From positions 813,128-877,127 of the forward strand of contig OZ240228.1 of the NCBI GenBank assembly GCA_965197795.1: a stretch of DNA of 64,000 nt, in the 5' to 3' direction. The notes beneath the pieces were generated by a model. It was not told where the DNA came from. It made no database searches and worked only from the letters and a program-made list of their open reading frames with translations. This DNA comes from Dehalococcoidia bacterium. Its GTDB lineage: Bacteria > Chloroflexota > Dehalococcoidia > DSTF01 > WHTK01. The number at the start of each line of letters is the position of its first letter. The stretch's first letter is position 1. Shown piece after piece: positions 45,602-64,000 of this stretch. Position numbers and translations under genes: made by a program.

Positions 45602-45689
45602 CCAGCTGTCCCATGTTCATGCAGGACGGGCCCGAGAGCCGAACATTGTTAGAATTCCCCAGCAGTACCCTCGCTACAGGTGGTAAGAG

Positions 45690-46436: not shown

Positions 46437-46438
46437 GA

Positions 46439-47755
46439 CTAGATGCTTGCTTCTGCGTAGGCCTTGACCGCAGCTGGCTCCGGTAGAAGTTCGCTAGCTG
46501 GTTGGAGCGGCGGTTGCGTTCGCTCTCCGTGTCCCGTGTCCCTAGGCTCACCCTCCGAAGTTCTTATAAGTGCACGTCCGATGGCCTCCCCAAGGCTGAC
46601 CGGAACGGCGTTCCCCAGTTGTTTGTACTTGCTCGCCGTCCTTCCGGCGAGCAAGTAGGTGTCAGGGAAGGTCTGAATCCGTTTGTACTCTTGGACTGAG
46701 AGCGGCCTGGTCTCCGTCGGGTGACAAAGGCCGGTTGCTAGCTGCGCCGGGCTGGTCGTAACCGTCGGTGACGGTTCGTTAAGCGAGAGTCGCCGCCAGA
46801 AGCCGACCCTGCCGCCCGTGGACTGGAGTGCACCTCCCATCGCACGTTCTAAGAGGCCTTCGGCAAATAGGTCTGCGTTGTCCCTGAGGTGACGCCAGTT
46901 CCTGCCCTGCGGTATCAGTGAATAGACCCGCGCTCTAAATGGACTGTACGGCGAGAACTCGGGTGGCCCTAGCGGATCCGGGACGAATGCGTCTCCCAGT
47001 GTCACCCATGGCTGCCGTCCCTCTCCCGGGTGTGAGGCGATCAGCCGGCTTTTCTTGGTGCCCACAGGTGCGCCGTGGGTGGGGCGCACGAGGTCTTGTA
47101 CCGTGAGCGGCCGGCCGGCCTCCCCGAGGAACTCCTGCGACCTGAACTCGTGCTCGCGGCTCCCGAGGACGACCACGCGCGTCCGCCGCTGCGGCACGCC
47201 GTAGTCGGCCGCGTCTACAAGGCCGGCCACGACCTCATAGCCGAGGGCCTCAAAAAGGGGCCGGATAAATGACTTGTAGAGGCTCCCGAGCTCTTCACCG
47301 GGCTGGAGCGGCACGCTGCCTTTTCCCCTCGCTGACAAGGGGCGGTGTTGAAGTGCAGCGGACAACAGCCCTCGGACGTTCTCGAAGACGAAGAACCGGG
47401 GCATTGCAGTCTTTACTATTTGGAAGTAGTGGTCGACAAGCGCGCCCCTCGGGTCATTCAGCGACTGCCGGTGGCCAGCCGTCGAGAACGCTTGGCAGGG
47501 TGGGCCACCCGTCACCGTGAAGGCCTCGCCTTGCTCCAGGCCCGCGGCGGCAAGCAGTTCTGCCCCGTTAACTTCGGTGATATCTGAGAACAGGGCGTTT
47601 GATGGGATCTCGAAGTTCTGACGCAGCGTCTCCTGAGAGTCGCGGTCGACTTCGACCCAGGCATTGAACCGGAGGCCAGCGTTCTCCAGCCCAAGATCCA
47701 GCCCACCAGCACCGGAGAATAGCGAGATAGAAGGGTCGGCGGGGGACGGTAACAT
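46439..47755 (-). CDS. dcm: DNA (cytosine-5)-methyltransferase
   Basis: Motif I ISLFSGAGGLDLG, motif IV GGPPCQAFS, ENV, QRRTRVVVLG, TFPD...GNAVP. Confidence 0.85.
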   Translation of the reverse strand: MLPSPADPSISLFSGAGGLDLGLENAGLRFNAWVEVDRDSQETLRQNFEIPSNALFSDITEVNGAELLAAAGLEQGEAFTVTGGPPCQAFSTAGHRQSLNDPRGALVDHYFQIVKTAMPRFFVFENVRGLLSAALQHRPLSARGKGSVPLQPGEELGSLYKSFIRPLFEALGYEVVAGLVDAADYGVPQRRTRVVVLGSREHEFRSQEFLGEAGRPLTVQDLVRPTHGAPVGTKKSRLIASHPGEGRQPWVTLGDAFVPDPLGPPEFSPYSPFRARVYSLIPQGRNWRHLRDNADLFAEGLLERAMGGALQSTGGRVGFWRRLSLNEPSPTVTTSPAQLATGLCHPTETRPLSVQEYKRIQTFPDTYLLAGRTASKYKQLGNAVPVSLGEAIGRALIRTSEGEPRDTGHGERTQPPLQPASELLPEPAAVKAYAEASI

Positions 47756-47796
47756 CACTTGCCCTCTAGAGGGATAATTTAGCTCTAAGCGAGCCA

Positions 47797-47818
47797 CATG
47801 TCGATCTTTGCTTAGTAG
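47797..47818 (-). repeat. repeat unit half-copy (reverse A half only), copy 4
   Basis: aTGTCGATCTTTGCTTAGTAG, 78 bp upstream of forward copy 5. The two form a short inverted pair. Confidence 0.6.
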
Positions 47819-47898
47819 CGCGTCACCTTCAGAGTCAACGGGCGTGGAGATAGGCGTCGGAGCAATCTGGTCGGGGGGATTCGTATCTCGTGGAAACA

Positions 47899-47954
47899 CT
47901 ACTAAGCAAAGATCGACAGTCAGGGCGATCCCTAGACTCCGAAGATCGACAGTC
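47899..47954 (+). repeat. bipartite repeat unit, copy 5 (forward)
   Basis: CTACTAAGCAAAGATCGACAGTC-agggcgatcccta-GACTCCGAAGATCGACAGTC. Reverse complement of copy 2. Confidence 0.8.
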
Positions 47955-48387
47955 GACCCTGAACAGGGAGGCCTGCCTGGCCTCGAGAAAAACTCACCGA
48001 AAGGCAGCGCGGTTGAGTCTCCTCTGCCACGTTGTGCCGCCGACGGTCGACCTCTCTTCTGGATGCCACAGCTGCAAGCCGCTGCCACCGCAGCAACTGG
48101 CACCCAATTGCTTCAATGGCGCTGGAGGCAGGCCTATCATTGCCATCTAATCCTCCGGCAGCAGACCGGGCGAAAGTTCAGATAGCGAGGCTAACAACCG
48201 GGGGGCTGGAAACTGAGTCAGAACGATGTCGGAGTGGTGGTTATGGCACAAGTAGTGGCGGAAATCTCACGGCCCGGAGCTGCACACAACTCCAATTTGA
48301 GGCGATTGACCGGCTCCTAGTCTCGGAACCCGTAGCTGAGGACTCAGCACCATAACTGTTGGACCCAACCCTAGCGAGGCAGCCCCC

Positions 48388-48720
48388 GTGGATTACGTCG
48401 TCAAGCCCTTCTCGCCGACCGAGCTTTCGGCCAGGCTCCGAGCGGCCCTGCGAAGGCGGGCCGTGTCCGAGCCGTCCGTGCTGGGCGACCTGGTTGTCGA
48501 CTACGCCGACCGCAGGGTGACCTTTGCCGGTCGTCCAGTCGAGTCGATGGCAATCGAGTACCGGCTGCTTGTCGAGGTTTCAGCGAACGCCGTGCGGGTG
48601 TTGACCTATGACCATCTACCGCAACGGGTCTGGGACGAGAAGAGCAGCAGCGACATGCGCCCCATGCGCATCATCGTAAGCAAGCTCCGTCGCAAGCGCC
48701 GACCACGTCGACAACCCCAT
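48388..48720 (+). pseudogene. C-terminal winged-helix (OmpR-type) fragment of a response regulator, cut at both ends
   Basis: PFSPTELSARLRAALRR...LVVDYADRRVTFAGRPVESMAIEYRLLVEVS...RVWDEKSSSDMRPMRIIVSKLRRK is a trans_reg_C domain. No receiver domain is upstream. The 3' end runs into repeat copy 6. Confidence 0.55.
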
Positions 48721-48775
48721 CTACTAAGCAAAGATCGACAGTCCCGCAGGAACCAGACTCCGAAGATCGATAGTC
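48721..48775 (+). repeat. bipartite repeat unit, copy 6 (forward); tip of the left ~230-bp terminal inverted repeat
   Basis: CTACTAAGCAAAGATCGACAGTC-ccgcaggaacca-GACTCCGAAGATCGATAGTC. Homology continues inward to about 48950 and is mirrored at 58040-58238. Confidence 0.85.
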
Positions 48776-48974
48776 TAGCCGTACAAGGTGGTCTGCTTTG
48801 GTCTAGGCGAAGACATGGCGTTACCCATCGAAAGCCACCGCCGTGACCAGAGCCGAGCATACCGTTCCAGTCACTCGACTGCGAGCTAGCGCGGCAAGAC
48901 AACGGTCAGCTCGAAGGGATAGCCTTTACTCGCCACCGCACGAACATGGTGGAGTGTGCACCTAGTGAACAGGC

Positions 48975-49298
48975 CTAGCGTCTCCCGAAGCCCCCGTCGT
49001 GCAGTACCGTCTTGCGCCCGCGGCAGGACTGGCACAGCGCCTGAAGGTTGGCCCAGGCATCGGACCCGCTCCGAGATTTGGGGCGGACGTGGTCAACGAC
49101 CGTAGCCCTGGCACCACAAGCTACGCAGCGCGGCTGGCTCGCCAGGACCCGGCGACGGAGGCGTTGCCAAGCACCACCGTAGCCACGACTAGCAGTAGTA
49201 GGGCGCTGCACTTGGTGTCTGAGGCACCGCGCCGACCGTGTGAGGACGGTGCAGTCCGGCTCAGAGCAGGGAGCGGGCAACCGGCGGCGCATGGCCAC
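48975..49298 (-). CDS. phage-type HNH endonuclease (copy 2)
   Basis: 107 aa, about 85% identical to 32338..32655. Located just upstream of terS/terL, as in HK97-like packaging modules. Confidence 0.7.
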   Translation of the reverse strand: MAMRRRLPAPCSEPDCTVLTRSARCLRHQVQRPTTASRGYGGAWQRLRRRVLASQPRCVACGARATVVDHVRPKSRSGSDAWANLQALCQSCRGRKTVLHDGGFGRR

Positions 49299-49510
49299 AG
49301 GATAACCGAGTCGCCTCGCGAAAAAGTTAATCTAGGCAACCCCCCAGACCGCGCAAAACCCGTCTTCCATTTTTTCCGAAAAAACAGGGGTTGGTTTGGC
49401 ACCCCTCCGGACGGCGTTTCGAGTCTGGCTCCGGGCGGCCCAGATTCAAACCGCCCCGGTCCATTTCGGCTCAAAAGAGGCCGAAAAGTGCTCACCCAGA
49501 CGGCTATCCC

Positions 49511-49939
49511 ATGACTAGCGGGCGGGTGCCGAAGCAGAATGCAGACCGTCTGACCACGCATTCCTCGGAGGTCAACAAGGAGCTGCGGCTCCCCGGCAAG
49601 GTGCACCCACCGAAGGCCCCGGTGCAGTGGCCTGAGAACGTCAAGAAGTGGTACGGCCTGCTGCGGCGATCCGGGCAAGCCGAGCTGTTCGACTACAGCG
49701 ACTGGGCGCTGGCCCTCCAGGCTGGAGACTGCCTGACCTACGCCCGGGCGTCAATCGTGAAGAGTCCATGGGCGGCCGTGCAGTGGATGCGCACGTTCGA
49801 CGCCATGTACGCCCGCCTCGGCGCTACGTTCATCGACCGGCGGCGCGAGCGGCTGGAGCTGCACAGGGGCGACGTCATCGAGGAGGAGAGTGAGGCACCG
49901 GACACCATCATGGCGTATCGGGAGCGTTTCGGCGAATGA
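49511..49939 (+). CDS. phage terminase small subunit
   Basis: MTSGRVPKQNADRLTTHSSEVNKELRLPGKVHPPKAPVQWPENVKKWYGLLRRSGQAELFDYSDWALAL, directly preceding the terminase large-subunit gene. Confidence 0.6.
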   Translation: MTSGRVPKQNADRLTTHSSEVNKELRLPGKVHPPKAPVQWPENVKKWYGLLRRSGQAELFDYSDWALALQAGDCLTYARASIVKSPWAAVQWMRTFDAMYARLGATFIDRRRERLELHRGDVIEEESEAPDTIMAYRERFGE

Positions 49940-50979
49940 AGGCGCTGCGGACGCTCCCCGAGGGCTTGCCCGGGCCGGCCCAGAGCATCGGCTGGTGGGT
50001 GGCCGACTGGTGTGAGCGCAACCTCGAGGTCCCAGACGGCCCGGAGGCCGGTAAGTCATGGCGCTTCACAAGGAGCAAGGGAGGTTCCTGCTGTGGTGGT
50101 ACGCCATCGATGAGAAGGGCCTGTTTCGCTACCGCTACGGCGTCCTACAGCGGGCGAAGGGTTGGGGCAAGGACCCGCTGGCGGGCGCGATCGCGCTATG
50201 TGAGCTGATGGGGGCCGTGCCGTTTTGACCGGATCGAGGGCGGCGTCGCCTACGCAAAGCCGGAGGCTTCACCGTGGATTGCCATCGCGGCGGTAGCGGA
50301 GGAGCAGACGCGCAACACGACCAACCTCTTCGACGGGTTCCTTCCTCCCCGGACGCGGAGACGGTACAAGATGCAGGTCGGCAAGAAGATCTGGCGCGCA
50401 ACGGTCGGCGGCCGGACGGGGGAGATTCCGCCTCGCGCCACGTCTTACCGCACGGCCGAGGGCGCTCGGCCGACGGCCTACATCCTCGGCGAGACGCAGC
50501 ACTGGCGCGCGGAGAACCACGGCCACGACATGTACGCGGCGATCCAGCGCAACCTGGGCAAATCGCGCGAGGGCGCGGCCCGTGCGCTGGCGACCACCAA
50601 CGCCTTCCGCCCAGGTGAGGACAGCATCGCCGAGCGTGACTACGACGCCTGGTTGGAGCAGTCGCGCGGCGGCCGGGTCGACATCCTTTATGATTCAGTG
50701 GAGCCTGTACTGGCGGATGACTTCGATGAGGACGACGACGAGGTGATGATGGAGGGCATCGCGGTAGCTTACGGCGACTCGCTCCCGTTCATATCGCCGT
50801 CCCGGATCATGGCGGAGGTCAGGTCGCCGACGGTTACCACGGCCGACGCGAAGCGCTTCTACCTCAACCTCCGTGTAGCCGGTGCCGGTGCCTGGATGAA
50901 CCCTTCGGCCTGGGACGCGAGCTACCGATCGCGCCTCGCGTTCCCTCTCTCCCGAACGAAAATCTGCTCAGGGACCTAG
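49936..50979 (+). pseudogene. phage terminase large subunit, N-terminal two-thirds, with two frameshifts (about 50065 and 50225), truncated
   Basis: Three frames join to give ...SWRFT|EQGRFLLWWYAIDEKGLFRYRYGVLQRAKGWGKDPLAGAIALCELMG|DRIEGGVAYAKPEASPWIAIAAVAEEQTRNTTNLFDGFLPPRTRRRYKMQVGKKIW... This is the terminase_1-type ATPase domain. The ORF ends at about 350 aa. Confidence 0.6.
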
Positions 50980-51969: not shown

Positions 51970-52371
51970 ATGATGGCCAAAAGTAGCGGCGGCGGCGGCG
52001 GGCGTAAGCCTCAGCCGACGGCGCTCAAGGTACTGAAAGGCAACCCGGGCAGGCGCCCACTCAACGAGGCTGAGCCCAAGCCCGAGGTGCTCTTACCGAG
52101 CCCGCCGGCACACCTGCCGCCCGCGGCCCGCCGGGAGTGGCGCCGCTCCGGCGCGTTCCTGGTGGAGATGGGGCTGATGACTGACCTGGATGTGGCGGCG
52201 CGGGCCGCGTACTGCGTGGCGTATAGCCACTGGGTAGACGCCGAGCATCAGATGCGCAAGCACGGCATACTCATGAAGTCGACTCGAGGGGAGCCGACAC
52301 GGAGTCCGTACTGGTTCATTTCAACGAAATCGATGGACTTGATGCGGTCGTTCCTGCTCGAGGCTGACTGA
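51970..52371 (+). CDS. phage terminase small subunit, P27 family
   Basis: GRKPQPTALKVLKGNPGRRPLNEAEP...LPPAARREWRR...GLMTDLDVAARAAYCVAYSHWVDAE matches the P27 TerS consensus. Confidence 0.65.
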   Translation: MMAKSSGGGGGRKPQPTALKVLKGNPGRRPLNEAEPKPEVLLPSPPAHLPPAARREWRRSGAFLVEMGLMTDLDVAARAAYCVAYSHWVDAEHQMRKHGILMKSTRGEPTRSPYWFISTKSMDLMRSFLLEAD

Positions 52372-53400: not shown

Positions 53401-53453
53401 AGGTGAGCATACCCTTATAGAGGAACGCTCTTAAGGGTATGCTCACCTGTCCT
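53401..53453. other. perfect 20-bp inverted repeat hairpin (GACAGGTGAGCATACCCTTA-13 nt loop-TAAGGGTATGCTCACCTGTC) overlapping the helicase gene stop
   Basis: Seen directly in sequence. Candidate terminator or protein-binding site. Confidence 0.5.
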
Positions 53454-55277
53454 TAGATAACCGGCGACTGTCCTGCGACTTGCACCGGCCAGCTGTGCCA
53501 CGCCGCTGGTTGTAATTGGCGCGCACCTCTTCTGCAGTTGTAACACAGCACTGCGGATCCGTCTCTCCGCATCCTCGCGGCGCCGGTCGTTAAGCTGCGA
53601 CGACTCACTGTTGGTTATTAGCTCGTCAACATGGAGCCCTGGTACTGGGTGGCTCGTATGCAGAACAACCCGAAGCTGCTGCCGTGTTGAACCAATGCAC
53701 TTCGAGAGGAGAGCAGGTTGCTCAAGCGTGAAAATACGGGCTCGCTGGATAGATTGTTCCATCTCGTCTTCACGTGCTGCTCGCAGAAGTTCAGCAACGC
53801 GAGGATCAATGCAGTCCACTACGTCGACCTCGTATCCTTGTCCGCCGAAGACTCGAGGTGATAGCACCATCCGGCCACTCACCGGTGGCTCGTTCGTATG
53901 CAATACCTGCGCCAGGAAGAATAGATCCTGCAGAGACGGCATCGGCCGTCCCACGAGGTGCAGCCTCTCCACGTCTGCGAGCGCGTTGGTGCCGCGAACG
54001 CTGCCAAACGTCACTACCTGCTCCTCGGCAAAGCCATCGGAGACGAGGCCTGCTCGCATCCCGCGAAAACAGATGACACCTTCTTTTTCGGGAGGTAGTG
54101 GGAGCGATAGCCGTTCAGAGTTGATCTCGGCCCGGACTTGGAGGGCTTTGTTCGCGTTACTTAGCACTGTGTGGCCGTTCGTGGTGGCTGCATACTGGAC
54201 CACCTTGACGTTTTGTGGCTTGCGGATAGCCACATCGATATCTGGCAGCCTCTCGTGATCGCGGGTTAGATGATGAACTAGGGTGGTCACCGGAGTGGCG
54301 TCAAGGAGCAGTAAGTCCAGCTGCGATAAGAGCGCCTCTCCTATCCTGCTCCTGACATGGTGCTTGAGGTTCCAGACCTCGATGCCGTCTAGGCTGAGAC
54401 GTAGCCGGCTGTTGAAGTCATCCCCAGCTTTGAATGAGCCGAGCTCATCTTGCAGAGTAGCGAAGAGGGTGTCGAGAGTCGCGGGTGGGGCTCTCTCCAC
54501 GGATTCACGGCTGACTAGACCTTGCTCATCTGCCGTAGGCTTCGGAAGCCTGGTCTGTTTGGGCAGCGCCTCAATCAAAGTCACGATGTCGAATCCGTAG
54601 CGGCGGGCGGTTCTCGCAAGCTGATCCCACGCATGGCCCCCTATCAGCCTCACGGGGCCACCGTCTTCGCGACATGGGACTTCCAGGGCTGCGTGGCTGA
54701 GGATTGCCAGTAGCCTGCGTAACCCGGTTCGGCGTTTGCCTCGCAGGAGCTTATAAGCGCGTACTAAGTCTTCTCTACTAATGTAAATGCGCTCTACTAG
54801 GGCTCGCATGAGGTCGGCATCGTCCACTACCAGGAGCCTGCCGCCGGCCAGGAAGTTGCGGTTAAAGAGCTGCTCGGCAGCGGCGACTCGTGGTCCAGCC
54901 TGTTCAAACTGACGCCAGTAGGCGCAATCGTTGCGTATTGGGCAGCGTGGCTTGTCGCTCCGGCCGCAGGCCAAGTCTTCCACGCTATGTCCGGATTGTG
55001 CCAAGGCCTCTACGACATCGTGACGATGACAGTTGCCGGGATGCCGGCCCTCAACTAAGACGTAGCCGTGCTCGGCTGCCAACTCGCGCGCGAGGCGAAG
55101 TGAACCCGTGACAATGCGCGTATTCACGCCTCGCCTGTGCACAGCTTCGGCAACTGCTGTGGTCTTGCCGACACCAGGTGAGCTTTTAATCAGTTGCGCC
55201 TTCACTCCCGATGTCCCGCCTTCGATGAACTGGCGGATGGCTTCTGTTGTGTCACGACGCGCCGTAGCCAATGGCAC
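53415..55277 (-). CDS. P-loop ATPase, putative replicative helicase of the element (primase-associated)
   Basis: Walker A SSPGVGKTTAV and Walker B LLVVDDADL. 620 aa. Located directly downstream of a Zn-finger/Toprim primase gene. Confidence 0.4.
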   Translation of the reverse strand: MPLATARRDTTEAIRQFIEGGTSGVKAQLIKSSPGVGKTTAVAEAVHRRGVNTRIVTGSLRLARELAAEHGYVLVEGRHPGNCHRHDVVEALAQSGHSVEDLACGRSDKPRCPIRNDCAYWRQFEQAGPRVAAAEQLFNRNFLAGGRLLVVDDADLMRALVERIYISREDLVRAYKLLRGKRRTGLRRLLAILSHAALEVPCREDGGPVRLIGGHAWDQLARTARRYGFDIVTLIEALPKQTRLPKPTADEQGLVSRESVERAPPATLDTLFATLQDELGSFKAGDDFNSRLRLSLDGIEVWNLKHHVRSRIGEALLSQLDLLLLDATPVTTLVHHLTRDHERLPDIDVAIRKPQNVKVVQYAATTNGHTVLSNANKALQVRAEINSERLSLPLPPEKEGVICFRGMRAGLVSDGFAEEQVVTFGSVRGTNALADVERLHLVGRPMPSLQDLFFLAQVLHTNEPPVSGRMVLSPRVFGGQGYEVDVVDCIDPRVAELLRAAREDEMEQSIQRARIFTLEQPALLSKCIGSTRQQLRVVLHTSHPVPGLHVDELITNSESSQLNDRRREDAERRIRSAVLQLQKRCAPITTSGVAQLAGASRRTVAGYLRTGEHTLKSVPL

Positions 55278-55293
55278 GCCCGTGACGACAGCG

Positions 55294-56457
55294 CTACTGA
55301 TTGCCGAAGGCCTTACTGGCCGCCGTTCGCCGATGCCGGGAGGAGCGAAGCACCTCGACCGAATGCGCGCCGTCCCCCAGCGAGAAGCAAGTCGTCAAGA
55401 CCCTTCGGCCCGCCCACCTCGTCACCCTCCCACACAGCCCGGAAGACCGGCAGGCCCGCATCAAACAGCTCCCGCAGCCACCGTTCTCTTGCGCGCGTGG
55501 TGTTTGGATTGTCCTCTTCGTCGAGTGCAACGATGACTCGGCCCGGGTGAAGGTCGCAATCACGCCAACGTGGTGAGCGCTAAGCGATTGGCCGGCCAGG
55601 CCCATGACCGTCACTTCACCCAGCCGATGCGCCACGTGGGCTTTGATGCCGCCCTCGGTCAGGTATAGATCACCGCCCGGTTCGGGAATTCCTGCTATGT
55701 GGTAAAGCCCGGCCGTGCGTGTGCCCCGTGCTGTTTCGTACTTGCCGCCGACGAACTTGAACTGAAGCCCAGTGATCAGACTCGTCTCATCTCGATAAGG
55801 CACGGCGTAGGCCTCTTGACTTCCAGAGGTGCGAAAGCTCGTGCGCCCGTTCTTATCGACGAAGCCGGGCCATCGCCTGAGGTATCGCTCCCCGAAGCGG
55901 TTCACTAGGTTAAGGAGAAAGCGCTGGACACTGCTGCCCCTGCGTGGTAGAGAACAATAGCCGACCTCCCGGACGTCATCGTCCGTTAGTCCGCGCCGTC
56001 TGAGGTCGGCCCGCGCCTCCGGTCGAAGGTCTAGGAGACTCAGTGCCGCGGTATAAATGGCGTCGACCTCATCTCGGCTTAGGTCTGGAGCCTTACTGGA
56101 AGCCCTAATGCGGGGCTGGGGGCGTTCAACAGAGGGCGGGAAGTCATGCTCAAGCCCGCATGGACATCGCCCGGAGAGCAGATGTTTGTACGCAGGCGGG
56201 TGGGTCTCTATGTCGAGCTGTGCCCTGCCGGCATGCTCGTGACGCGTGCAATATGTTGTTATGCGGAGCGAAAAACCGGCACACCGGACTCCACGCTCTC
56301 GCGGCAGGCCGGAATGACCGCCGCAAACTGGGCACGGGAACAACCGGCTATGGCGCTGGAGATTAGCCTTCCCAATCTGCACCTCTCGCACGACCTGATC
56401 GTTCATGGCAGACGCACTCGACATCTCGCGGTGATCGGCGGCCAGGTCCTGGTTCAT
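55294..56457 (-). CDS. zinc-finger + Toprim DNA primase, apparently frameshifted near 55565
   Basis: CPVCGG...C...C zinc finger. Toprim E (YLTEGGIKA) in the main frame. DxD (RVIVALDEEDNP...) continues in the +2 frame after cacccgggccgag. Confidence 0.45.
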   Translation of the reverse strand: MNQDLAADHREMSSASAMNDQVVREVQIGKANLQRHSRLFPCPVCGGHSGLPRERGVRCAGFSLRITTYCTRHEHAGRAQLDIETHPPAYKHLLSGRCPCGLEHDFPPSVERPQPRIRASSKAPDLSRDEVDAIYTAALSLLDLRPEARADLRRRGLTDDDVREVGYCSLPRRGSSVQRFLLNLVNRFGERYLRRWPGFVDKNGRTSFRTSGSQEAYAVPYRDETSLITGLQFKFVGGKYETARGTRTAGLYHIAGIPEPGGDLYLTEGGIKAHVAHRLGEVTVMGLAGQSLSAHHVGVIATFTRAESSLHSTKRTIQTPRAQENGGCGSCLMRACRSSGLCGRVTRWAGRRVLTTCFSLGDGAHSVEVLRSSRHRRTAASKAFGNQ

Positions 56458-56828
56458 GCAGCACCGCCCGTTGTGCCGGACTGCCGCTCACCGTTATCGC
56501 CGGACGCGGCGGGGTCCTCAACAGGCGCGAAGTCGTCGGCTATAGACTTGAGAATCTCCCGCCACAGCGCATCCCAAGCCGGTGCGCGTGGCCCCGCCGT
56601 CCAGGCCGCCGCAAATCGCGGAGATCGATACCTCGCCGCGGGTTTGCCTCCGGCCTCCTGAACCTCGGTGCTGAGGAGGCCGTCAACGTGCTGCCGGTCG
56701 ACCATGCGCTTGCCGGAGGGGAGTTGAAGAAAGGGCAGCCAGCCCCGGTCAAGCCACCGACGTACCGTGCGAGGATGCACGTCGCACTGCGCCGCGACTT
56801 CCGAGACCGAGAGATATTTGTCCGCCAT
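56454..56828 (-). CDS. excisionase/MerR-type HTH DNA-binding protein
   Basis: LSVSEVAAQCDVHPRTVRRWLDRGWLPFLQLPSGKRMV is an Xis/HTH_17 motif. 4-nt overlap with the primase start. Confidence 0.5.
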   Translation of the reverse strand: MADKYLSVSEVAAQCDVHPRTVRRWLDRGWLPFLQLPSGKRMVDRQHVDGLLSTEVQEAGGKPAARYRSPRFAAAWTAGPRAPAWDALWREILKSIADDFAPVEDPAASGDNGERQSGTTGGAA

Positions 56829-56891
56829 TCGCGCAGAATGCCGCGCAGTGACACGGTCGATGCGGACACGCCAATGCCCGCAAAAGGGTAA

Positions 56892-57758
56892 TTATTGCAA
56901 TGTAAGGCCCGAGGCTTTGGCGAACCGACTGACAGCCTTGCGAATGGCGTCTGAAGAAACGTCGTGCCCATCCAGTTGCAACTCCCGAGCCCGCTTCTCG
57001 TAGCTCAATTTGGGGTCGAGTAGATGGGAAGCCGTCCACCGAGCGTGCAGCTTGAGTTTGGCGGCCTTCGGGACCTGCCATTCGCCGGTGCCGAGGGCCA
57101 GGCCGCGCAGACGGAGCCGAACGGGATCTATCTGTCTATGAACCGAACGCCTCTCCCGCTTCCACAGCGGTCGCTTGAGATGAATTTCGATCTCTAACGT
57201 GTCCACGTCGGCAAGACGTGGCTCATGTGCGGAAACAGACAGGTCCCCGATGACCGTCTCGGCGCCGTCATTGAGAGTGACCGGGGCTGAGGTTTCCAGG
57301 ACCCAGCCAACTGCCCCGACGAGACCGATAAACCCATCTAAGCCGGACTTCACGCGCCTGAGGTGAGAAGCAACCACGAAGGGCTCGGCCCACCGATTGT
57401 GCAGCCGCCAGTCCATGCACAAGCGGCCTACATCACCCTGGTACGCTTTGACATGGTGGCGCTGCGAGCTTCGGAGACGAATCCCGTCGTCGCGGCCGTA
57501 TTGCCGCTGTAAGGGAGTAGACACTTCTTGCTTGAGCCAGGTCGACAACCGCGCCGGCGACCGTGGAAGCCTGTTTGGTCTGTGATGGGCAAGCCGCGTG
57601 ATGATTCGGCGGTTTTGTTCGTAGATGGCCTCGAGGCCTGAGTGAAACTTTTCGCCCTGGGCGCTCTTGTCCTGGTACATGGCTTGAAGTAGTAAGCCGG
57701 TCAGGCGGACCTGGCTATCAGTGAGCGTTAGCCCTCTATGATCGCCGCCTCGTGGCAT
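56892..57758 (-). CDS. hypothetical protein (288 aa)
   Basis: Clean ORF in the replication/regulation module. No motif recognised. Confidence 0.35.
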   Translation of the reverse strand: MPRGGDHRGLTLTDSQVRLTGLLLQAMYQDKSAQGEKFHSGLEAIYEQNRRIITRLAHHRPNRLPRSPARLSTWLKQEVSTPLQRQYGRDDGIRLRSSQRHHVKAYQGDVGRLCMDWRLHNRWAEPFVVASHLRRVKSGLDGFIGLVGAVGWVLETSAPVTLNDGAETVIGDLSVSAHEPRLADVDTLEIEIHLKRPLWKRERRSVHRQIDPVRLRLRGLALGTGEWQVPKAAKLKLHARWTASHLLDPKLSYEKRARELQLDGHDVSSDAIRKAVSRFAKASGLTLQ

Positions 57759-58182
57759 CCGACTACACCATTACCGGAGAGACTCTCAAAAGGTTGCTCA
57801 GACCGGATGATGCGCTGGCGGCGAAACCGTTCGTTAGACGGAACGCGACCCCTGGCGAGCGTCCACAGACTGGCATATCGACCGTCCCCGCGGTTCCCTT
57901 CGCTACCCGCGTCCGACCACTGGTCTCCTAGTATAGGGAAGCGCGAAGGTCACGCGGAACGGAAGGCCTACCGCCGAGGCGCTGTTTATCAACGATGAAC
58001 AGTCATCCCGATGTTCGTCCAGTGGTGAGTAAAGGCTATCCCTTTAGGCTGACCGTTGCTTTGCCGCGCTAGCTCGCGGTCGAGTGACTGGAACAGAATG
58101 GTCTGCTCTGGTCACCGCGGTGGCTTTCGATGGCTAACGCCATATCTTCGCCTAGACCAAAGCAGGCCACGTTCTACGGGCT

Positions 58183-58238
58183 GACTGTCGATCTTCTGAA
58201 TCTGACTTCCTGTGAGACCGTCGATCTTTGCTTAGTAG
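58183..58238 (-). repeat. bipartite repeat unit, copy 7 (reverse); tip of the right terminal inverted repeat
   Basis: GACTGTCGATCTTCTGAATC-tgacttcctgtga-GACCGTCGATCTTTGCTTAGTAG. Confidence 0.8.
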
Positions 58239-58607
58239 TTGTCGCCGCCGTTGAAGTCTGCTCGCTGAGCTGCGAGTGGGAAGCAACCAGGCTCGGTGCC
58301 GGATCATCGGTGGAGGAGACAGCGCTGGGAGCGGCATCAATCCGGCCACCGTTCAGCCCGTTGTGCTCAAACTCCAGACACAACTGCAGAGCGCTCATCG
58401 CCCTGGGCCGTACGCGTCGGGGAGCCTGAGCCGGCATCTCCCGCTGCGATGTCTCGAAAGATGCGCTGCCAGAGCTCTGTCCAAGCAGCGTTCCGGGTTC
58501 CGGCCACCCAGGTTGCCTCGATGGCAACTTGTTCTGCCGCTGAACTCTGCTTCACGCGACTGGGGTTCGCTGGACCTGATACTCGACGTTTGCGCGGCTT
58601 GGCCAAA

Positions 58608-59001: not shown

Positions 59002-59913
59002 GCGACTGAGGCAGAGGCGCTGCAAGAAGTCTGGAGGCGCCGAGCCGAGGGCGAGTCCATGGGGGAACTCGCTGCATGGCTGAACGACCTCGGCTTCAAG
59101 ACTCGGGAAGGCAATCGGTTCACCGCCCACGCGATCAAAGACATCTTCAACAACCGCTTCTACCTTGGCTTGGTTATCTACCGTGGCATCGAATATCCGG
59201 GGCAGCACGAGGCGCTGATCTCGCGGTACGTCTTTGACCAGGTGCAGGAAAGACGCGGTGGAATCCGAGCACCACGTAAGGTCTGGCAGGAAACAGGTGT
59301 GTTGCAGGGATTCATCTCGTGTGGCCTCTGTGGCAACCCTCTGCAGTCGGACCGGTCCCGCTTCGGCAAGCCCATGTACCGAGAGCGTCACGGCCACCAG
59401 TGTGAATCGAATGGACACTCGGCAATGGCAGATGTCTTCGACAATGAGTTAGGCGTGATCCTGCGCAGCCTCGAGCTTGAACCAGCATGGTGTGACCGCA
59501 TCGCACACCTGGCGGTGTCTGACTACCAAGGGCCCAGCGAAGCGGAACTTCGCAACAGACTGAGGAAGTTGGGCGTGGCTTACGTTGAAACCGGCATGTC
59601 AGATGCCCGGTACAGACATCGAAAGGCAGAGTTAGAAGATCAGATCAAGGCAGCCAGTGCGGTCGTGCCGCCTTCTTATGAAGAGGCAGCGGCTCTACTC
59701 TTGGATTTGGAAGCACTCTGGAAAGAGGCTACGCCGGAAGAACGTCGAAAGCTCATCAGCCCGCTGATCGAACGCGTCTACGTGGACATGGAGCTAAAGC
59801 TTGTGGGGGCGATCACGCCAACGCCGGCATTCAGGGCTCTACTGCGGTGTGCGGTACAAAGAGCGGCTCCAACATCATCCTGGTCTCTCAAGAGGACATG
59901 CAAAGGCCGGTGA
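59002..59913 (+). pseudogene. large serine recombinase, C-terminal two-thirds only (resolvase catalytic domain missing)
   Basis: The open frame from 58888 reads ...APELIATEAEALQEVWRRRAEGESMGELAAWLNDLGFKTREGNRFTAHAIKDIFNNRFYLGLVIYRG...CGLCGNPL (recombinase domain and zinc ribbon). No S-containing N-terminal domain. Confidence 0.6.
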
Positions 59914-59943
59914 TTTCTTGGTGGAGACGGGGGAGAATCGAAC
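59912..59943 (-). repeat. 31-bp direct repeat resembling a tRNA/tmRNA 3' end on the minus strand (…TTCGATTCTCCCCCGTCTCCACCA), copy 1
   Basis: ATTTCTTGGTGGAGACGGGGGAGAATCGAAC. The reverse complement ends GTTCGATTCTCCCCCGTCTCCACCAAGAAAT. Second copy at 62159-62189. Confidence 0.55.
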
Positions 59944-60727
59944 TCGGCGGTAGAACTTCCACAGACGTCCGCAGATGACCTTCATCGAGTACCGTAGATT
60001 CAATATGTTCACTCATCAGTCCGCTAACGGTTGCAGAAGGTCACCAAAATCCGCCGGTGCTGTTGTCGGAACTGTTGTCAATTCAGGGATCGATAGTCTC
60101 TGAGAAGCGAAGAACTTAGGTGCAATTGGAGCGATTCTAACCATGCCACGGAGGCAGCGTGCGGGCCGGCCCTGCATCTGGCGCTGGCAAGTGAAGTCAG
60201 AAGTGTAGGAGAAGGGTGGGAAGGAGACTGCGGTGAGACTCTTGGGCCAGCCAAGTGAGCATGACTCTCGACCTCTACAGACATGTCACGCCGATTATGC
60301 AGAGGGCCGCGGCCGACGCGATGGAGGAAGTCCTGACCTCAGGCTGACCCGAAACTCCGAATCCTCATCTTGGGACCGACGGATTAAAAGTAGGACGGTG
60401 GTGAGAGGCCCCAGAAGGCCCCGTCTTGAATCTGAGTTACTCCCGTTTCGAGCATCTTTCTCGGCGAGTTCGTTGGTCTGCCAGCCGATTAACTCTCTGG
60501 TAATTCCTTGGAATTCGCAAGAATTCGGATTAACTGGAATTAATTCAAAGACACGCAATTTTCTCACTGGATCCGGTGGGGCGGGTCTTCGACAGAGCCA
60601 AAGCGAGTCGAACGACAAGCGATTCAAACGGCGAGCCTTTACGGGTGATTCGTCACGACGCTGTGACAGAGACACTGGAACAGAGCGCAGCCCCGTTGTC
60701 AGTTGCGACAACGGGGCTGCGTCCTTC

Positions 60728-61750
60728 TCAGACCTGTGCGAGCTGAGGAATGACTTTTGCAGGGTTGTGATGGAAGATCTTGATCTTCTCTTCTTCACTG
60801 AGCCAATCAAACGCGGCGATAACAGGAACAAGATCATCTCCTGGAACACCGTTTTCTGGGCGTGGGTGTCGACTAGATCCTGGAGCCTCGACACCAAAGC
60901 ACATCTGGTCGACTCCTTTTTGTCGAATCGCTGCAGTGAGGTAGTTCACCTCAGGTGCATTGGTATCGAAGAAGAGGTTCTTCGTCGTATCCCGAGACGG
61001 TAGGTGTGGATCACCCTGGACAAAGCGGTCGAGTGCTCCACCGCAGTGACAGATGATGAACTTGATATTTGGAAAGCGATCGAAGACGTCTCCGTGACCG
61101 AGCAGCTGCGTAGCGAAAAACTGCTCGACGTAAAATGCCATCTGGTAGTTCTGAGGAATAATTCTCAGCCGACGATCCAAGACGTTCGATGCATGGACGA
61201 TGATCGGGATGTTGCGTCCTTCGCACTCTTCATAGAGCGGATACCAGTAGTCTTCGTGCATTCCTGGCGTTTCACGCTTGCCACCTGGGTCGGGGTTGAC
61301 ATAGGTCGCGACGAAGCCGTACTCGTCAATGCATCGACGAAGTTCAGGCAGCACGTTTGAGGTGTCTTTGTACTCTGAGACGAATGGTAGCTGCGATGCG
61401 CCAAGGAATCGATCAGGGTAGTAGGTGCACTGTTGGTAGATCATCTCGTTGACCTCTCGGCACCAACTCTCCAGCAGATGATCTTGCATCCAAGCCATGT
61501 GGTTAAGTGGGCGAGGGCCAATGACTTGGACATCAATGTTGCGGTCGTCGATGTACTTCACATGGTTTGCAGCGGCCCAGCGAAAGTCCTCATCAGTGAT
61601 TCGGAAATTTGCGGGCAGTCCCTGCCCTGCCTTTAATACCGTGCCAGTTCTGGCAGTGTTTGATCCAAGTAATTGCACAAGCGTTGCGTTCGCCCCAGTT
61701 GGCACGCTGACGTGTGCGTGCACGTCAAGAACTTTGATCCCGTTGTACAT
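60728..61750 (-). CDS. amidohydrolase-2 family (TIM-barrel metal-dependent hydrolase/decarboxylase), lower-GC cargo gene
   Basis: VLDVHAHVSVP...HASN...ICHCGGALD...FDTNA is a PF04909-like pattern. The gene and its upstream region are visibly AT-richer than their surroundings. Confidence 0.6.
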   Translation of the reverse strand: MYNGIKVLDVHAHVSVPTGANATLVQLLGSNTARTGTVLKAGQGLPANFRITDEDFRWAAANHVKYIDDRNIDVQVIGPRPLNHMAWMQDHLLESWCREVNEMIYQQCTYYPDRFLGASQLPFVSEYKDTSNVLPELRRCIDEYGFVATYVNPDPGGKRETPGMHEDYWYPLYEECEGRNIPIIVHASNVLDRRLRIIPQNYQMAFYVEQFFATQLLGHGDVFDRFPNIKFIICHCGGALDRFVQGDPHLPSRDTTKNLFFDTNAPEVNYLTAAIRQKGVDQMCFGVEAPGSSRHPRPENGVPGDDLVPVIAAFDWLSEEEKIKIFHHNPAKVIPQLAQV

Positions 61751-62158
61751 ATAGCCCCCTTAGTGGTGATTCCTAGCCCCGACATTCCCCATATCAACTG
61801 GCTTGGCGGCATCGGGTATGCCTCCCGCCACCTGAAAAGTACGTCCTCCCTGGCAAACGGTCAATCTGCGCTCTCCACACGCACTTCGCCACCCGGTTCA
61901 CCTCCCAAGATATGCTCGACTTGATGGCCGAACCCGAGCTGAGCCCACAGTGAGCCTCTGAGCTATTGGGTCATGCGGATATCACGACAACCTTGCGAAT
62001 CTACTCCCACGTGCTCCCAAGCATGCAAGAGGAGGCCGCGACGGCAATGGATCGAATCTTTGAAGCATGAATTAGTGGCGTCTCTGGATGTTGTCAAAAC
62101 TGTTGTCTATGACACTAGAAAAGCTCCCGAATCTCCGATTTCAGATTCAAAAGCTAGT

Positions 62159-62189
62159 TATTTGTTGGTGGAGACGGGGGAGAATCGAA
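62159..62189 (-). repeat. 31-bp tRNA/tmRNA-3'-end-like direct repeat, copy 2
   Basis: ATTTGTTGGTGGAGACGGGGGAGAATCGAAT. One mismatch to copy 1 over the core 26 bp. Confidence 0.55.
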
Positions 62190-62372
62190 TTCGTCCCACG
62201 TGGTGCCGTGATTGTCCTTAGGTGTCCTCAGCCGTCCGCCACAGACTCGACCTAGTTCGCTGTTCGTCCGTCACTGGTTTCTTTTGTTCGTGGTGGGATT
62301 CTGTGGTTGCTGTCAGCGTTGCTGTCAAAGGAGGGGGGGTGGGGGCCGGACTTTTCTTGCACGTCCGTATTA

Positions 62373-62622
62373 ATGTGGACGGATGCTACCTGTAACCATC
62401 TAACGGGCTGCACCAAGGTCAGTCCTGGATGCGCCCACTGTTACGCCGAAGCGCTCACGCTGAGGTTCAAGAGTGGTGGCCCGTATCCTCGGGGAGTAGG
62501 CAGTGTCAAAACGCATCCCGAGAGGCAGACACTCCTTACGATGGAAATCACCTCGCCGAATCTTCGTCAACAGTATGAGCGACCTCTTCCATGAAGACGC
62601 GCACTCACGATGACATTCCCAC
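62373..62622 (+). pseudogene. phage Gp37/Gp68 (DUF5131) protein fragment, frameshifted and truncated
   Basis: [26 protein letters not shown]...HPER. A shifted frame gives [21 protein letters not shown] followed by a stop. Confidence 0.5.
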
Positions 62623-62773: not shown

Positions 62774-63212
62774 TCAGCCGTTTCCGCCGTAGCTTGCTTG
62801 CCCGGCGGACCGCCACAAAGAAATGGCTTCGAAGGCCAGGATGACAATGGCCAGGGCGGTCAGGTGGCCCCATAACCCGGCGGTAGCTTCATGATTAGGG
62901 GCTATCTTGTCGGCGTATTGCATAAGGAAGCGGACCCACACGACGGCCACCAGGGCGGTGATCACGTCCCGGGGCATCTGAGTCAGGTGATTGCCGGCCC
63001 GGCTGCGAATTCTCAGCGAATCGCCCACGTTGACCAGGACATTGAAGCCCATGACTATCAGCGCCGCCGGATCGGCGATGTAGTCCCAGATGAACTCGCT
63101 TACCGCCTTGTTGTAGGGGTAGTAGAGCTCGTTGAACAGGACCGCAACCGCGGTAATCCCACCCAGGACTGCCAGCCATTTTCGCCACTGTTCCATAGCA
63201 AGCAACACTTTC
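62774..63212 (-). CDS. hypothetical integral membrane protein
   Basis: Four hydrophobic helices (LAVLGGITAVAVLF, ALIVMGFNVLV, ALVAVVWVRFL, ALAIVILAF). Start chosen at MKVLLAMEQW. Confidence 0.35.
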
Positions 63213-64000
63213 ATGAGGGTTGTTATTATTTTACCCAGGGAGTATGGCGGGCCGGACTGTACAAAATCGAAAACCGAGGCCCCTTCGGTAATCAACCCCC
63301 ACCCGATGGCATGGTATCGTGTACGTCAGCGCGGCCTCGTTCCCCACCACCTCGATGCCCTTCACGAAGTTCCGAATCAAGGCTCGTCTCTCCAGCAGCA
63401 GTGCAGATCGACCCTTTGCTGCTCCAACAAACCGGCAGCCTCCTCCCGCATAGTCGTCAGCTTGACCCTGCCTGTGTCTCAACGAGAGCATGCGGGATAA
63501 AGGGCCTCTAGGGCTTCGTAGAGACGCTTCAGCCTAGTCTCCACGTTCCCAAGCTTTACCTCGATGGCCTTCAGCGCTCGTCCAACTCCCCTGCCATGAC
63601 GTACTCGACGCTCAAGTCATGGTCTTGGGGTCTACGCCGGTGCTGCTGAGCGCCTCTATGTGACAGAACATCGGAGTCCTGAAGCATGACGCAGATGGCC
63701 GTACCGGGAGGGCGGGTCAAAAGTCCAAAAGTCATCGCGTCAAGGGAGTGTGGTTGGCAGACGCGCGCGTGGTCGCGAAATAAGCTTTTTGGGATCGGTC
63801 TGAATCTGAGCGCTGCAAATTCGTATCTGAGGACATGAGCAAAAACACGCCAAAACTGGCCAAAACAATGCATTGGGCCACTTTCGCGATAATGCGTATC
63901 CGACGATGCGTCCACGGACGCATCAAGCGCTGACCATCCTGCCGGCATGCAGGTAGCCGTGCCAGGTGGAGCCGGCGACGTCGATCAAGATTGAGAGTGG

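What the first reader, a model, noticed from the sequence alone, without database searches (positions are those of the whole stretch)
59912..62189. Low-GC amidohydrolase cassette flanked by 31-bp direct repeats that look like a tRNA/tmRNA 3' end
The two repeats (one mismatch) read on the minus strand as ...TTCGATTCTCCCCCGTCTCCACCA, a T-loop plus acceptor end. They bracket 2.2 kb containing an AT-richer region and an amidohydrolase-2 gene, and a serine-recombinase fragment ends 6 bp before the first repeat. This suggests serial integrations at a tRNA/tmRNA-type att core, with the intact RNA gene probably lying to the right beyond the window.
Basis: seen in the sequence. Interest (0 to 1): 0.5.

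Follow-up and report, generated by a model that had tools for sequence, protein, structure and literature searches.

The report
Decayed genomic islands at tmRNA gene
The two repeats are copies of the last 24-27 bases of the tmRNA gene (ssrA), the scars left when mobile islands insert one after another into that gene; this is a well-known process already described in detail for the related genus Dehalococcoides, so the finding is real but ordinary.

Summary
A 24-nt exact repeat lies at 59919-59942 and 62166-62189; it extends to 49 nt at 86% identity. It brackets the lowest-GC 2.2 kb of the window (53.2% against 61.7%). That segment holds one intact Amidohydro_2 gene, whose closest solved relatives are LigY and LigJ.

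Read on the minus strand, the repeat is the T-loop, 3' T-stem, 3' acceptor strand and ACCA of the tmRNA of Dehalococcoidia/Chloroflexota. The same 21-mer ends an intact ssrA gene in most of 118 genomes scanned. In a MAG about 98.7% identical to the window, intact ssrA lies to the right in the predicted orientation. That is about 7.5 kb past the window-end equivalent.

The segment is the integrase-less remnant of tyrosine-integrase island(s). It carries two integrase C-terminal pseudogene pieces and a paired candidate arm-site motif near each end.

Left of repeat 1 is a truncated CcrB/DsiB-like large serine recombinase. Its ancestral frame read through the repeat. Homologues sit in the same position against ssrA in 12 other genomes.

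This matches the tandem "ssrA-GI" arrays of Dehalococcoides (McMurdie 2011). It is a new member of a known kind, of low to moderate interest. The window lineage's own ssrA was not reached.

The parts
59002..59913 (+). Truncated large serine recombinase pseudogene (CcrB/DsiB-like). It keeps the Recombinase, zinc-ribbon and coiled-coil part only and belongs to the island to the LEFT of repeat 1. A frameshift near 59850-59858 creates the TGA at 59911. The ancestral frame continues as ORF 59847-59978 (...SQEDMQRPVISWWRRGRIELGG...) through repeat 1.
   Evidence: Pfam Recombinase E 1e-16 and Zn_ribbon_recom, with no Resolvase domain. It aligns to residues 238-524 of the full-length 606-aa L035 protein at 46% identity. 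The best NCBIfam hit is CcrB, below its cut-off. The alternative-frame ORF is and matches the L072/L020 C-termini.
59919..59945 (-). Direct repeat 1 (DR1): 27 nt identical to the ssrA 3' end, covering 3 nt of the 5' T-stem, the T-loop, the 3' T-stem, the 3' acceptor strand and ACCA. It is the ssrA-distal (attR-type) junction of the amidohydrolase segment and the ssrA-proximal (attL-type) junction of the serine-recombinase island on the left.
   Evidence: There is a weak Rfam tmRNA hit at 59919-59972 (E 0.0063).
60061..60079 (+). Paired motif TGTTGTC-N4-CTGTTGTC, 119 nt inside DR1. It is a candidate arm-type integrase-binding site on the P-arm side.
   Evidence: There are only two such sites in 64 kb against 0.14 expected. 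The other is next to DR2.
60237..60347 (+). Tyrosine-integrase C-terminal relic 'intA' (...SMTLDLYRHVTPIMQRAAADAMEEVLTSG*), about 36 codons.
   Evidence: Translation. The box II-like LDLYRHV motif was seen by eye. It is too short for Pfam and is conserved in L001-L003 and L040. The L008 homology breakpoint falls inside it.
60686..60721 (.). Perfect 15-bp inverted repeat with a 6-nt loop, immediately after the amidohydrolase stop codon. It is a likely transcription terminator.
   Evidence: Inverted repeat I10.
60728..61750 (-). Intact 340-aa Amidohydro_2 gene, the only intact cargo gene. Its closest solved relatives are LigY (a C-C hydrolase of biphenyl-type lignin-fragment catabolism) and LigJ (4-oxalomesaconate hydratase).
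   Evidence: PF04909 at 114 bits. PDB 5vn5/6e6i E 1.1e-40 and 6dwv E 1.1e-35. No NCBIfam equivalog. The identical protein occurs in 3 other assemblies.
61855..62070 (+). Tyrosine-integrase C-terminal pseudogene 'intB', about 70 codons with one in-frame stop and a probable frameshift. It contains HxLRH and LLGHADITTTLRIYSHV and ends 95 nt before DR2, convergent with ssrA.
   Evidence: Translations. Phage_integrase E 6.7e-6 on a repaired translation, 26.4 bits against a cut-off of 27.1. A homologous relic lies beside the intact ssrA of L043.
62089..62107 (+). Second copy of the paired motif TGTTGTC-N4-CTGTTGTC, between intB and DR2. It is a candidate P'-arm integrase-binding site.
62166..62192 (-). 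Direct repeat 2 (DR2): the ssrA 3' end with 24 nt exact and 26 of 27 overall. It is the ssrA-proximal (attL-type) junction of the amidohydrolase segment.
   Evidence: DR2 plus its roughly 75-nt left flank is homologous to the flank of the intact ssrA in L043 and to the L119 repeat.
62296..62594 (+). Start of the next island towards ssrA. It has a related paired motif (GTTGCTGTC-N3-GTTGCTGTC at 62296-62317, about 107 nt from DR2) and a DUF5131 gene fragment at 62307-62594.
   Evidence: Sequence. DUF5131 E 3.1e-13, covering only profile positions 2-57 of 243. A full-length DUF5131 sits in the corresponding place in L040.

Best explanation
The 2.2-kb segment is a decayed, integrase-less genomic island, probably the collapsed remainder of one or two tyrosine-integrase islands. 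It sits inside a tandem array of islands that inserted successively into the 3' end of the tmRNA gene ssrA of an uncultured Dehalococcoidia bacterium.

Each incoming element carried its own copy of the ssrA T-loop-to-CCA segment in its attP site. Recombination in or near the T-loop rebuilt a functional ssrA from the element's copy. The previous 3' end was pushed downstream, where it remains as a direct repeat. DR2 and DR1 are two such displaced ends.

The element between them has lost its integrase. Only C-terminal relics remain, one of them directly inside DR2 with candidate arm sites. It keeps one intact low-GC cargo gene, a LigY/LigJ-like amidohydrolase.

Distal to DR1 lies an older island of a second type. 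It was driven by a CcrB/DsiB-like large serine recombinase whose gene abuts ssrA tail-to-tail and originally read through the att core. That gene is now truncated and frameshifted.

Shown: the identity of the repeat with the ssrA 3' end; the orientation and position of intact ssrA in a near-identical MAG; the recombinase relics and their conserved placement in other genomes; the low GC; and recurrence in independent assemblies. Inferred: the order of events; that the tyrosine-type enzyme made the DR2/DR1 junctions; that the TGTTGTC pairs are arm sites; and that the segment is now immobile unless an integrase is supplied in trans.
For: Repeat identity and significance.

The repeat is the ssrA 3' end. 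The 21-mer scan found 118 stretches, all Chloroflexota/Dehalococcoidia or unclassified MAGs. ARAGORN calls an intact tmRNA ending in it in most of them. In the loci and window, 116 occurrences are intact-type and 13 are partial. The Rfam alignment shows the exact 24 nt to be T-loop, 3' T-stem, 3' acceptor and ACCA.

Array in a related MAG. CBDDBP010000006.1 has partial copies in L119 and L040 and intact ssrA in L116, all in the same orientation. Window 59543-61864 matches L040 at 98.8% and window 62892-64000 matches L116 1-1113 at 98.6%.

Serine recombinase. Domains are, the truncation and the CcrB-like best hit. Homologues lie convergent with and within about 100 nt of the ssrA 3' end or repeat in 12 other genomes. 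Two of these are full length with a Resolvase domain and read into ssrA (L035, L108).

Tyrosine integrase. The intB relic plus flank is homologous to the flank of intact ssrA in L043. An intact tyrosine integrase convergent with and reading into ssrA is present in L075.

Paired TGTTGTC motifs occur only near the two ends of the segment. Independent assemblies share the arrangement. A small integrase-less, repeat-bounded island next to ssrA is also seen in L094.

The published precedent has the same architecture: McMurdie et al. 2011, PMC3146451.
Against: The intact ssrA of the window's own lineage was not found. It is absent from the window and from about 9.5 kb beyond its right end in the 99%-identical ENA contig.

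In another relative (CAXXWO010000006.1) the amidohydrolase plus DR2 lies 417 kb from ssrA and is inverted relative to it (L008 against L091). The segment can therefore exist outside a simple array.

Structural variants break the segment at the two integrase relics: L040 lacks intB and DR2, and L008 lacks intA and DR1. It is therefore a mosaic rather than one clean element.

intA is too short for a Pfam call, and intB scores just under the Pfam cut-off even after manual repair. No distal repeat for the serine-recombinase island exists in the window.
Confidence: 0.85

Rival explanations
1. The segment is a serine-recombinase-type ssrA island that never had its own integration module. It would be a cis-mobilizable element in the sense of McMurdie 2011, whose two junctions were made by the DsiB-like enzyme, and the tyrosine-integrase relics would be incidental cargo debris.
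For: The 49-nt extended repeat includes, distal to both DR1 and DR2, about 21 nt that look like the last codons of the serine recombinase...MQRPVISWWRRGRIE against ...IQKLVICWWRRGRIE. Serine recombinases are the commonest recombinase found against ssrA in the sampled genomes. In Dehalococcoides, 15 ssrA islands lack an integration module.
Against: The intB relic lies where an island integrase is expected: 95 nt inside DR2 and convergent with ssrA. The same relic and flank abut the intact ssrA in L043. Paired TGTTGTC motifs near both ends fit arm-type sites, which tyrosine integrases use and serine integrases do not (established knowledge). An intact tyrosine integrase at ssrA exists in L075.
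Confidence: 0.1
2. The two repeats come from a local segmental duplication or from recombination between dispersed ssrA-end relics. They would not be junctions of site-specific integration at this place.
For: The region is a mosaic with breakpoints at the integrase relics. The segment occurs far from ssrA and inverted relative to it in CAXXWO010000006.1.
Against: Similarity between the two copies is confined to the ssrA core plus about 21 nt on one side. It stops at the T-loop on the other side, as expected for att junctions. Recombinase genes or relics flank both copies in the canonical orientation. The related MAG shows a co-oriented array ending in ssrA.
Confidence: 0.04
3. The repeats are parts of functional RNA genes, such as the acceptor piece of a two-piece (permuted) tmRNA or a tRNA-like element.
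For: There is a weak Rfam tmRNA hit on DR1 (14.9 bits, E 0.0063).
Against: ARAGORN finds no tRNA or tmRNA in the window or in L001-L003 and L122. No Rfam family reaches its gathering score. Sequence 5' of the T-loop does not pair with the T-stem in either copy. This lineage has a standard one-piece tmRNA.
Confidence: 0.01

Closest known systems
Dehalococcoides ssrA-specific genomic islands (ssrA-GIs) with the DsiB serine recombinase (McMurdie et al. 2011, BMC Genomics 12:287, PMC3146451)
   Same: Both occur in the class Dehalococcoidia. Both are tandem islands downstream of the single-copy ssrA, each bounded by ssrA or a direct repeat of its 3' end that starts in the T-loop. Both have low-GC cargo. 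In both, a CcrB-like large serine recombinase gene sits next to the ssrA-proximal junction on the opposite strand, with an ORF that runs into the repeat or ssrA and has no stop of its own. Both families include members that lack an integration module.
   Different: The host is an uncultured, high-GC (62%) Dehalococcoidia lineage, not Dehalococcoides. The repeat is longer: 24-27 nt from the first T-loop base, against 20 bp from mid T-loop. The cargo is an amidohydrolase rather than reductive dehalogenases. The repeat-bounded segment itself carries tyrosine-integrase relics, not dsiB. The window's serine recombinase is a truncated pseudogene. No DsiA, RecF, ParB or Mom/tRNA-like module was identified here. 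Direct sequence comparison with DsiB itself was not possible.
Tyrosine-integrase islands and prophages in tRNA/tmRNA genes (Williams 2002, NAR 30:866; Islander/TIGER resources, cited in PMC12884075)
   Same: Integration is into the 3' part of ssrA with reconstitution of the gene. A displaced 3'-end copy marks the far junction. The integrase gene lies at the ssrA-proximal end. There are candidate arm-type repeats on both sides of the core, and tandem accretion of elements.
   Different: The integrase here survives only as two C-terminal pseudogene pieces, and the element is reduced to 2.2 kb with a single cargo gene. The exact crossover position within the 24-27-nt identity block cannot be determined from sequence.
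SCCmec-type cassettes (CcrA/CcrB) and cis-mobilizable elements (CIMEs)
   Same: The serine recombinase family is closest to CcrB. Both show tandem accretion at one essential single-copy gene, and both include integrase-less units with att-like ends on both sides that an integrase could move in trans.
   Different: The target is ssrA rather than rlmH (orfX). No CcrA-like partner gene was found here. Trans-mobilization is untested.

Membership tests
Dehalococcoides-type ssrA-GI array (McMurdie 2011) | Lies downstream of the single-copy ssrA (within about 100 kb), co-oriented with it | tested here: inconclusive
   Met in the roughly 98.7%-identical MAG contig CBDDBP010000006.1, where ssrA (L116 7523-7879) lies about 37 kb upstream of the DR1 equivalent in the same orientation. 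The window lineage's own ssrA was not reached. In CAXXWO010000006.1 the segment is 417 kb away and inverted.
Dehalococcoides-type ssrA-GI array (McMurdie 2011) | Island bounded by direct repeats of the ssrA 3' end that begin in the T-loop | tested here: met
   The exact 24 nt run from the first T-loop base to CCA, and DR1 has 27 nt. This is longer than the 20 bp reported for Dehalococcoides.
Dehalococcoides-type ssrA-GI array (McMurdie 2011) | CcrB-like large serine recombinase (DsiB) gene at the ssrA-proximal junction, on the opposite strand, with its ORF overlapping the repeat | tested here: not met
   Not met for the 2.2-kb segment, whose ssrA-proximal end (DR2) carries a tyrosine-integrase relic. 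It is met in degraded form by the neighbouring island left of DR1. It is met in intact form in L035 and L108.
Dehalococcoides-type ssrA-GI array (McMurdie 2011) | Six-gene integration module (DsiB, DsiA, RecF-like, ParB, Mom-like with an embedded tRNA-like gene) | tested here: not met
   ORFs left of the recombinase fragment gave only HTH_17 or no Pfam hit. No tRNA-like gene was found. L002 has ParA-like and D12-methyltransferase genes beyond the recombinase, which is at most a loose analogy.
Tyrosine-integrase island in a tmRNA gene (Williams 2002 type) | Tyrosine recombinase gene at the end next to the RNA gene | tested here: inconclusive
   Only relics remain. intB scores Phage_integrase E 6.7e-6, at 26.4 bits against a cut-off of 27.1, on a hand-repaired translation. 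intA gives no Pfam hit. The placement is conserved next to intact ssrA in L043. An intact example is present in L075.
Tyrosine-integrase island in a tmRNA gene (Williams 2002 type) | attL/attR share an identity block made of the 3' part of the RNA gene, which stays intact after integration | tested here: met
   ssrA is intact in the related MAG despite downstream partial copies.
Tyrosine-integrase island in a tmRNA gene (Williams 2002 type) | Arm-type integrase-binding repeats flanking the core | tested here: inconclusive
   TGTTGTC-N4-CTGTTGTC occurs only twice in 64 kb against 0.14 expected, once inside each end of the segment. Binding cannot be tested here.
Cis-mobilizable element (CIME) | Intact att sites at both ends, no integrase, mobilizable by an integrase supplied in trans | not testable with these tools
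   Both cores are intact and no functional recombinase is inside. Excision or mobilization would need read-level or experimental data.

The most novel reading that the evidence does not exclude
In this Dehalococcoidia lineage, two unrelated recombinase classes share the same 24-nt ssrA T-loop-to-CCA core and build mixed tandem arrays: tyrosine integrases and CcrB/DsiB-like large serine recombinases. In both classes the recombinase ORF has no stop codon of its own and is completed by the antisense strand of ssrA. The tails seen are WWRRGRIEL..., LVETGENRTPRP... and GGDGGESNS... in the three frames. The enzyme's C-terminus would therefore change on integration and excision, which could act as a built-in directionality or expression switch.
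Probability: 0.15. Interest if true: 0.5.

Novelty: new member of a known kind. Interest (0 to 1): 0.22.

Why it matters
The finding extends the ssrA-island mechanism, known from organohalide-respiring Dehalococcoides, to uncultured high-GC Dehalococcoidia. It shows that the region downstream of ssrA is this lineage's main dumping ground for mobile DNA. Besides the amidohydrolase, the window holds a Druantia-type defence cluster, restriction-modification genes and prophage debris.

Practically, the 24-nt core is a handy marker for delimiting islands in Chloroflexota MAGs. The intact recombinases found in related loci (L035, L108, L075) are candidate site-specific integrases with a known, conserved attB. 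Nothing here challenges current understanding.

Tried and rejected
Seven lines of enquiry led nowhere or were rejected.

1. Looking for the intact RNA gene in the window and just beyond it. ARAGORN and Rfam found nothing in the window, L001-L003 or L122. Walking further was blocked because only window-encoded proteins can be looked up.

2. An early reading of the 17 nt after the T-loop as an 8+5 tRNA-Sec-type arm. This was rejected once the scan showed tmRNA with a 6-bp T-stem.

3. A third, degenerate repeat after the intA relic (around 60400-60440). Local alignment to the DR2 flank was no better than shuffles: score 21, with 6 of 500 shuffles at or above it, and covering only 13 nt. Rejected.

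4. Further repeat copies in the window that would mark the far end of the serine-recombinase island. None was found at up to 8 of 27 mismatches.

5. Using L088, labelled D. mccartyi, to obtain a genuine dsiB for comparison. No recombinase lies downstream there, so homology to DsiB itself remains untested.

6. Many long ORFs reading antisense through ssrA in other loci. Judged by eye from their composition, most look like spurious ORFs of high-GC DNA; only the L075 ORF was scanned against Pfam and was a real integrase.

7. The large protein-database searches, structure prediction and the metagenome scan were not used, because they were not needed for the verdict.
Full report
**1. Observation**

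The repeat exists as described. TGGTGGAGACGGGGGAGAATCGAA occurs at 59919-59942 and 62166-62189 and nowhere else in the window, even with 3 mismatches. None was found in 100 dinucleotide-preserving shuffles. Ungapped similarity extends over 49 nt at 86% identity (59898-59946 against 62145-62193).

The enclosed 59943-62165 is 53.2% GC against a window mean of 61.7%. It is the lowest of all 2.2-kb windows (profile). It holds one intact gene, a 340-aa Amidohydro_2 protein at 60728-61750 on the minus strand. That gene is followed by a perfect 15-bp hairpin (I10).

The same two-repeat arrangement is found in three other assemblies from different samples (L001-L003). It is therefore not an assembly artefact.

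**2. What the repeat is**

ARAGORN finds no tRNA or tmRNA in the window. Rfam gives only a weak sub-threshold tmRNA hit on repeat 1.

Nearly all are labelled Chloroflexota/Dehalococcoidia; the rest are unclassified 'uncultured bacterium' MAGs. In most of the 118 stretches the 21-mer is the 3' end of an intact tmRNA gene with an ...ALAA-type tag. Counted across the loci and the window, 116 of 129 occurrences are preceded by the ssrA T-stem, and 13 are partial copies.

The Rfam alignment of the L116 gene (167.5 bits) places the exact 24 nt as T-loop, 3' T-stem, 3' acceptor strand and ACCA. Repeat 1 adds 3 nt of the 5' T-stem. Upstream of that point, neither window copy resembles ssrA closely. 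Both copies are therefore displaced ssrA 3' ends, not genes.

**3. Where the intact gene is**

Contig CBDDBP010000006.1 (609 kb) is a Dehalococcoidia MAG 98.6-98.8% identical to the window where the two align. It carries three co-oriented features:

- a partial copy at about 345.6 kb (L119);
- a partial copy with the amidohydrolase at about 362.7 kb (L040, matching window 59543-61864);
- the intact ssrA at 399.5-399.9 kb (L116 7523-7879, minus strand).

L116 1-1113 matches window 62892-64000.

In the ENA contig closest to the window (99%; L001 and L122), colinearity with L116 stops about 800 bp short of ssrA. Different DNA follows, with no tmRNA in the roughly 9.5 kb available beyond the window end. 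That lineage has at least one more insertion, and its own ssrA was not reached.

**4. The recombinases**

*Serine recombinase, left of repeat 1.* The ORF at 59002-59913 has Recombinase and zinc-ribbon domains only. It aligns to residues 238-524 of a 606-aa homologue and so lacks the catalytic Resolvase domain. Its stop codon 5 nt before the repeat follows a frameshift. The alternative frame (ORF 59847-59978) reads ...SQEDMQRPVISWWRRGRIELGG through the repeat. That matches the C-termini of homologues in L072 and L020.

tblastn places homologues of this protein tail-to-tail with, and within about 100 nt of, the ssrA 3' end or a partial copy in 12 other genomes. In L035 and L108 the genes are full length, have a Resolvase domain, and run into ssrA without a stop of their own. 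The best NCBIfam hit is CcrB.

*Tyrosine integrase, inside the segment.* Two C-terminal relics lie on the + strand. intB spans about 61855-62070, contains HxLRH and LLGHADITTTLRIYSHV, and carries one in-frame stop and a likely frameshift. It scores Phage_integrase E 6.7e-6 on a repaired translation. intA spans 60237-60347.

intB ends 95 nt before repeat 2 and is convergent with ssrA. The same relic plus flank lies beside the intact ssrA of L043, and the flank also beside the L119 copy. An intact tyrosine integrase in this position, reading into ssrA, is present in L075.

A paired motif TGTTGTC-N4-CTGTTGTC occurs only twice in the window against 0.14 expected. One copy lies 119 nt inside repeat 1 and the other 59-77 nt inside repeat 2. 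This placement suits arm-type binding sites of a single tyrosine-integrase element. A related pair lies about 107 nt beyond repeat 2, at the edge of the next island, next to a DUF5131 fragment.

**5. Mechanism**

The best reading is successive site-specific integrations into ssrA. Each element supplies a replacement T-loop-to-CCA segment, so the tmRNA stays functional, and the previous 3' end is displaced downstream as a direct repeat.

Read in ssrA sense, from right to left in the window, the order is:

- ssrA;
- newer island(s);
- DR2;
- the tyrosine-integrase island remnant carrying the amidohydrolase;
- DR1;
- the older serine-recombinase island remnant.

The segment is a mosaic. L040 keeps DR1 and the amidohydrolase but diverges at the start of intB. 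L008 keeps the amidohydrolase and DR2 but diverges inside intA. Deletions or recombination at the integrase genes have therefore reshaped it, and it may be the collapsed remainder of two elements.

It has no working recombinase. Any present-day mobility would need an enzyme supplied in trans. That is inference and was not tested.

**6. Comparison with what is known**

This architecture was described for Dehalococcoides by McMurdie et al. 2011 (PMC3146451). That work reported:

- tandem ssrA-specific islands within 100 kb downstream of ssrA;
- a CcrB-like serine recombinase gene (dsiB) on the reverse strand at the proximal junction, always overlapping it and lacking its own stop codon;
- many islands with no integration module;
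- a related module on a deep-sea fosmid.

Integration into tRNA and tmRNA genes with gene reconstitution is also the textbook behaviour of tyrosine-integrase islands (Williams 2002, as cited in PMC12884075).

The present case differs in host lineage, repeat length, cargo, and the co-occurrence of tyrosine-type and serine-type relics in one array. The six-gene Dsi module was not found, and DsiB itself could not be compared directly.

**7. Cargo**

The amidohydrolase's closest solved relatives are LigY (E 1.1e-40) and LigJ (E 1.1e-35). Both are enzymes of lignin-derived aromatic catabolism. No NCBIfam equivalog matches. Its substrate is unknown.

**8. Verdict**

The feature is a new member of a known kind: a decayed island in an ssrA tandem array. 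Interest is low to moderate.

The only mildly novel aspects are two. Tyrosine and serine recombinases apparently share the same ssrA core. And across diverged family members, recombinase ORFs are completed by antisense ssrA sequence.

Noticed in passing
window 35241-48103 (minus strand): A Druantia type II-like anti-phage cluster by PADLOC. It comprises a DruK-like PD-(D/E)XK nuclease (35241-36500), DruE2 (36353-41731, 1630 bits), DruF2 (41731-44805, 502 bits) and a C5 cytosine methylase matching DruM2/MTase_II (46442-48103). An EcoO109I-like restriction endonuclease ORF lies at 45690-46433 (+).
   Followed up: partly
window 33314-34195 (-) and 26050-27750 (-): A 294-aa N-terminal fragment of a type I-G/U Cas3 (PADLOC Cas3g, E 8e-70), with no CRISPR array examined. 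There is also a 567-aa AAA_21 ATPase resembling AriA/OLD-family defence ATPases.
   Followed up: no
window 32006-33230, 48718-50358, 58011-58250, 20848-20997/58607-58758: Two diverged copies (79-88% identity) of prophage debris, comprising an HNH endonuclease and pieces that look like terminase large subunit by eye (Pfam found nothing in 50371-50976). A P27-type small terminase lies at 51970-52371. A 240-nt piece of the repeat is inverted just left of the serine-recombinase fragment, and another copy lies beyond the window end in L001.
   Followed up: partly
L083 3088-3291 (JBBDNH010000131.1): An intact tmRNA gene is followed by two further perfect copies of its T-arm-to-CCA end, each with the same roughly 70-nt spacer, at a 91-92-nt period. 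It looks like a tandem duplication of the ssrA 3' end rather than island junctions.
   Followed up: no
L008 and L091 (CAXXWO010000006.1, 2.18 Mb contig): In this relative, the amidohydrolase plus DR2 block (97% identical to window 60297-62375) lies 417 kb from the intact ssrA and in the opposite orientation. It sits next to a primase-like (BT4734/PriCT_2) gene. This suggests a large inversion or carriage on another element. The amidohydrolase reading frame is broken there.
   Followed up: partly
L035, L108, L072, L020, L075, L116 and other loci, at the ssrA 3' end: Recombinase ORFs of both classes run antisense into ssrA and are terminated only inside it, using different frames in different genomes (WWRRGRIELPVQ and LVETGENRTPRP; a third, GGDGGESNSPS, is seen in the L015 recombinase ORF but otherwise only in ORFs that look spurious). 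The enzymes' C-terminal tails therefore depend on the integration state.
   Followed up: partly
window 53415-57758 (minus strand): Left of the recombinase fragment lies a run of element-type genes with no family assignment (620 aa, 387 aa with a CxxC motif, 288 aa) plus an HTH_17/excisionase-like 124-aa protein at 56454-56828. It is probably the replication and regulation module of another integrative element.
   Followed up: no
L040 4810-6718 and window 62307-62594: A DUF5131 (phage Gp37/Gp68-like) gene is followed by a 384-aa partner ORF in the MAG. Only the first roughly 57 profile positions of a diverged DUF5131 survive at the corresponding place right of DR2 in the window.
   Followed up: no
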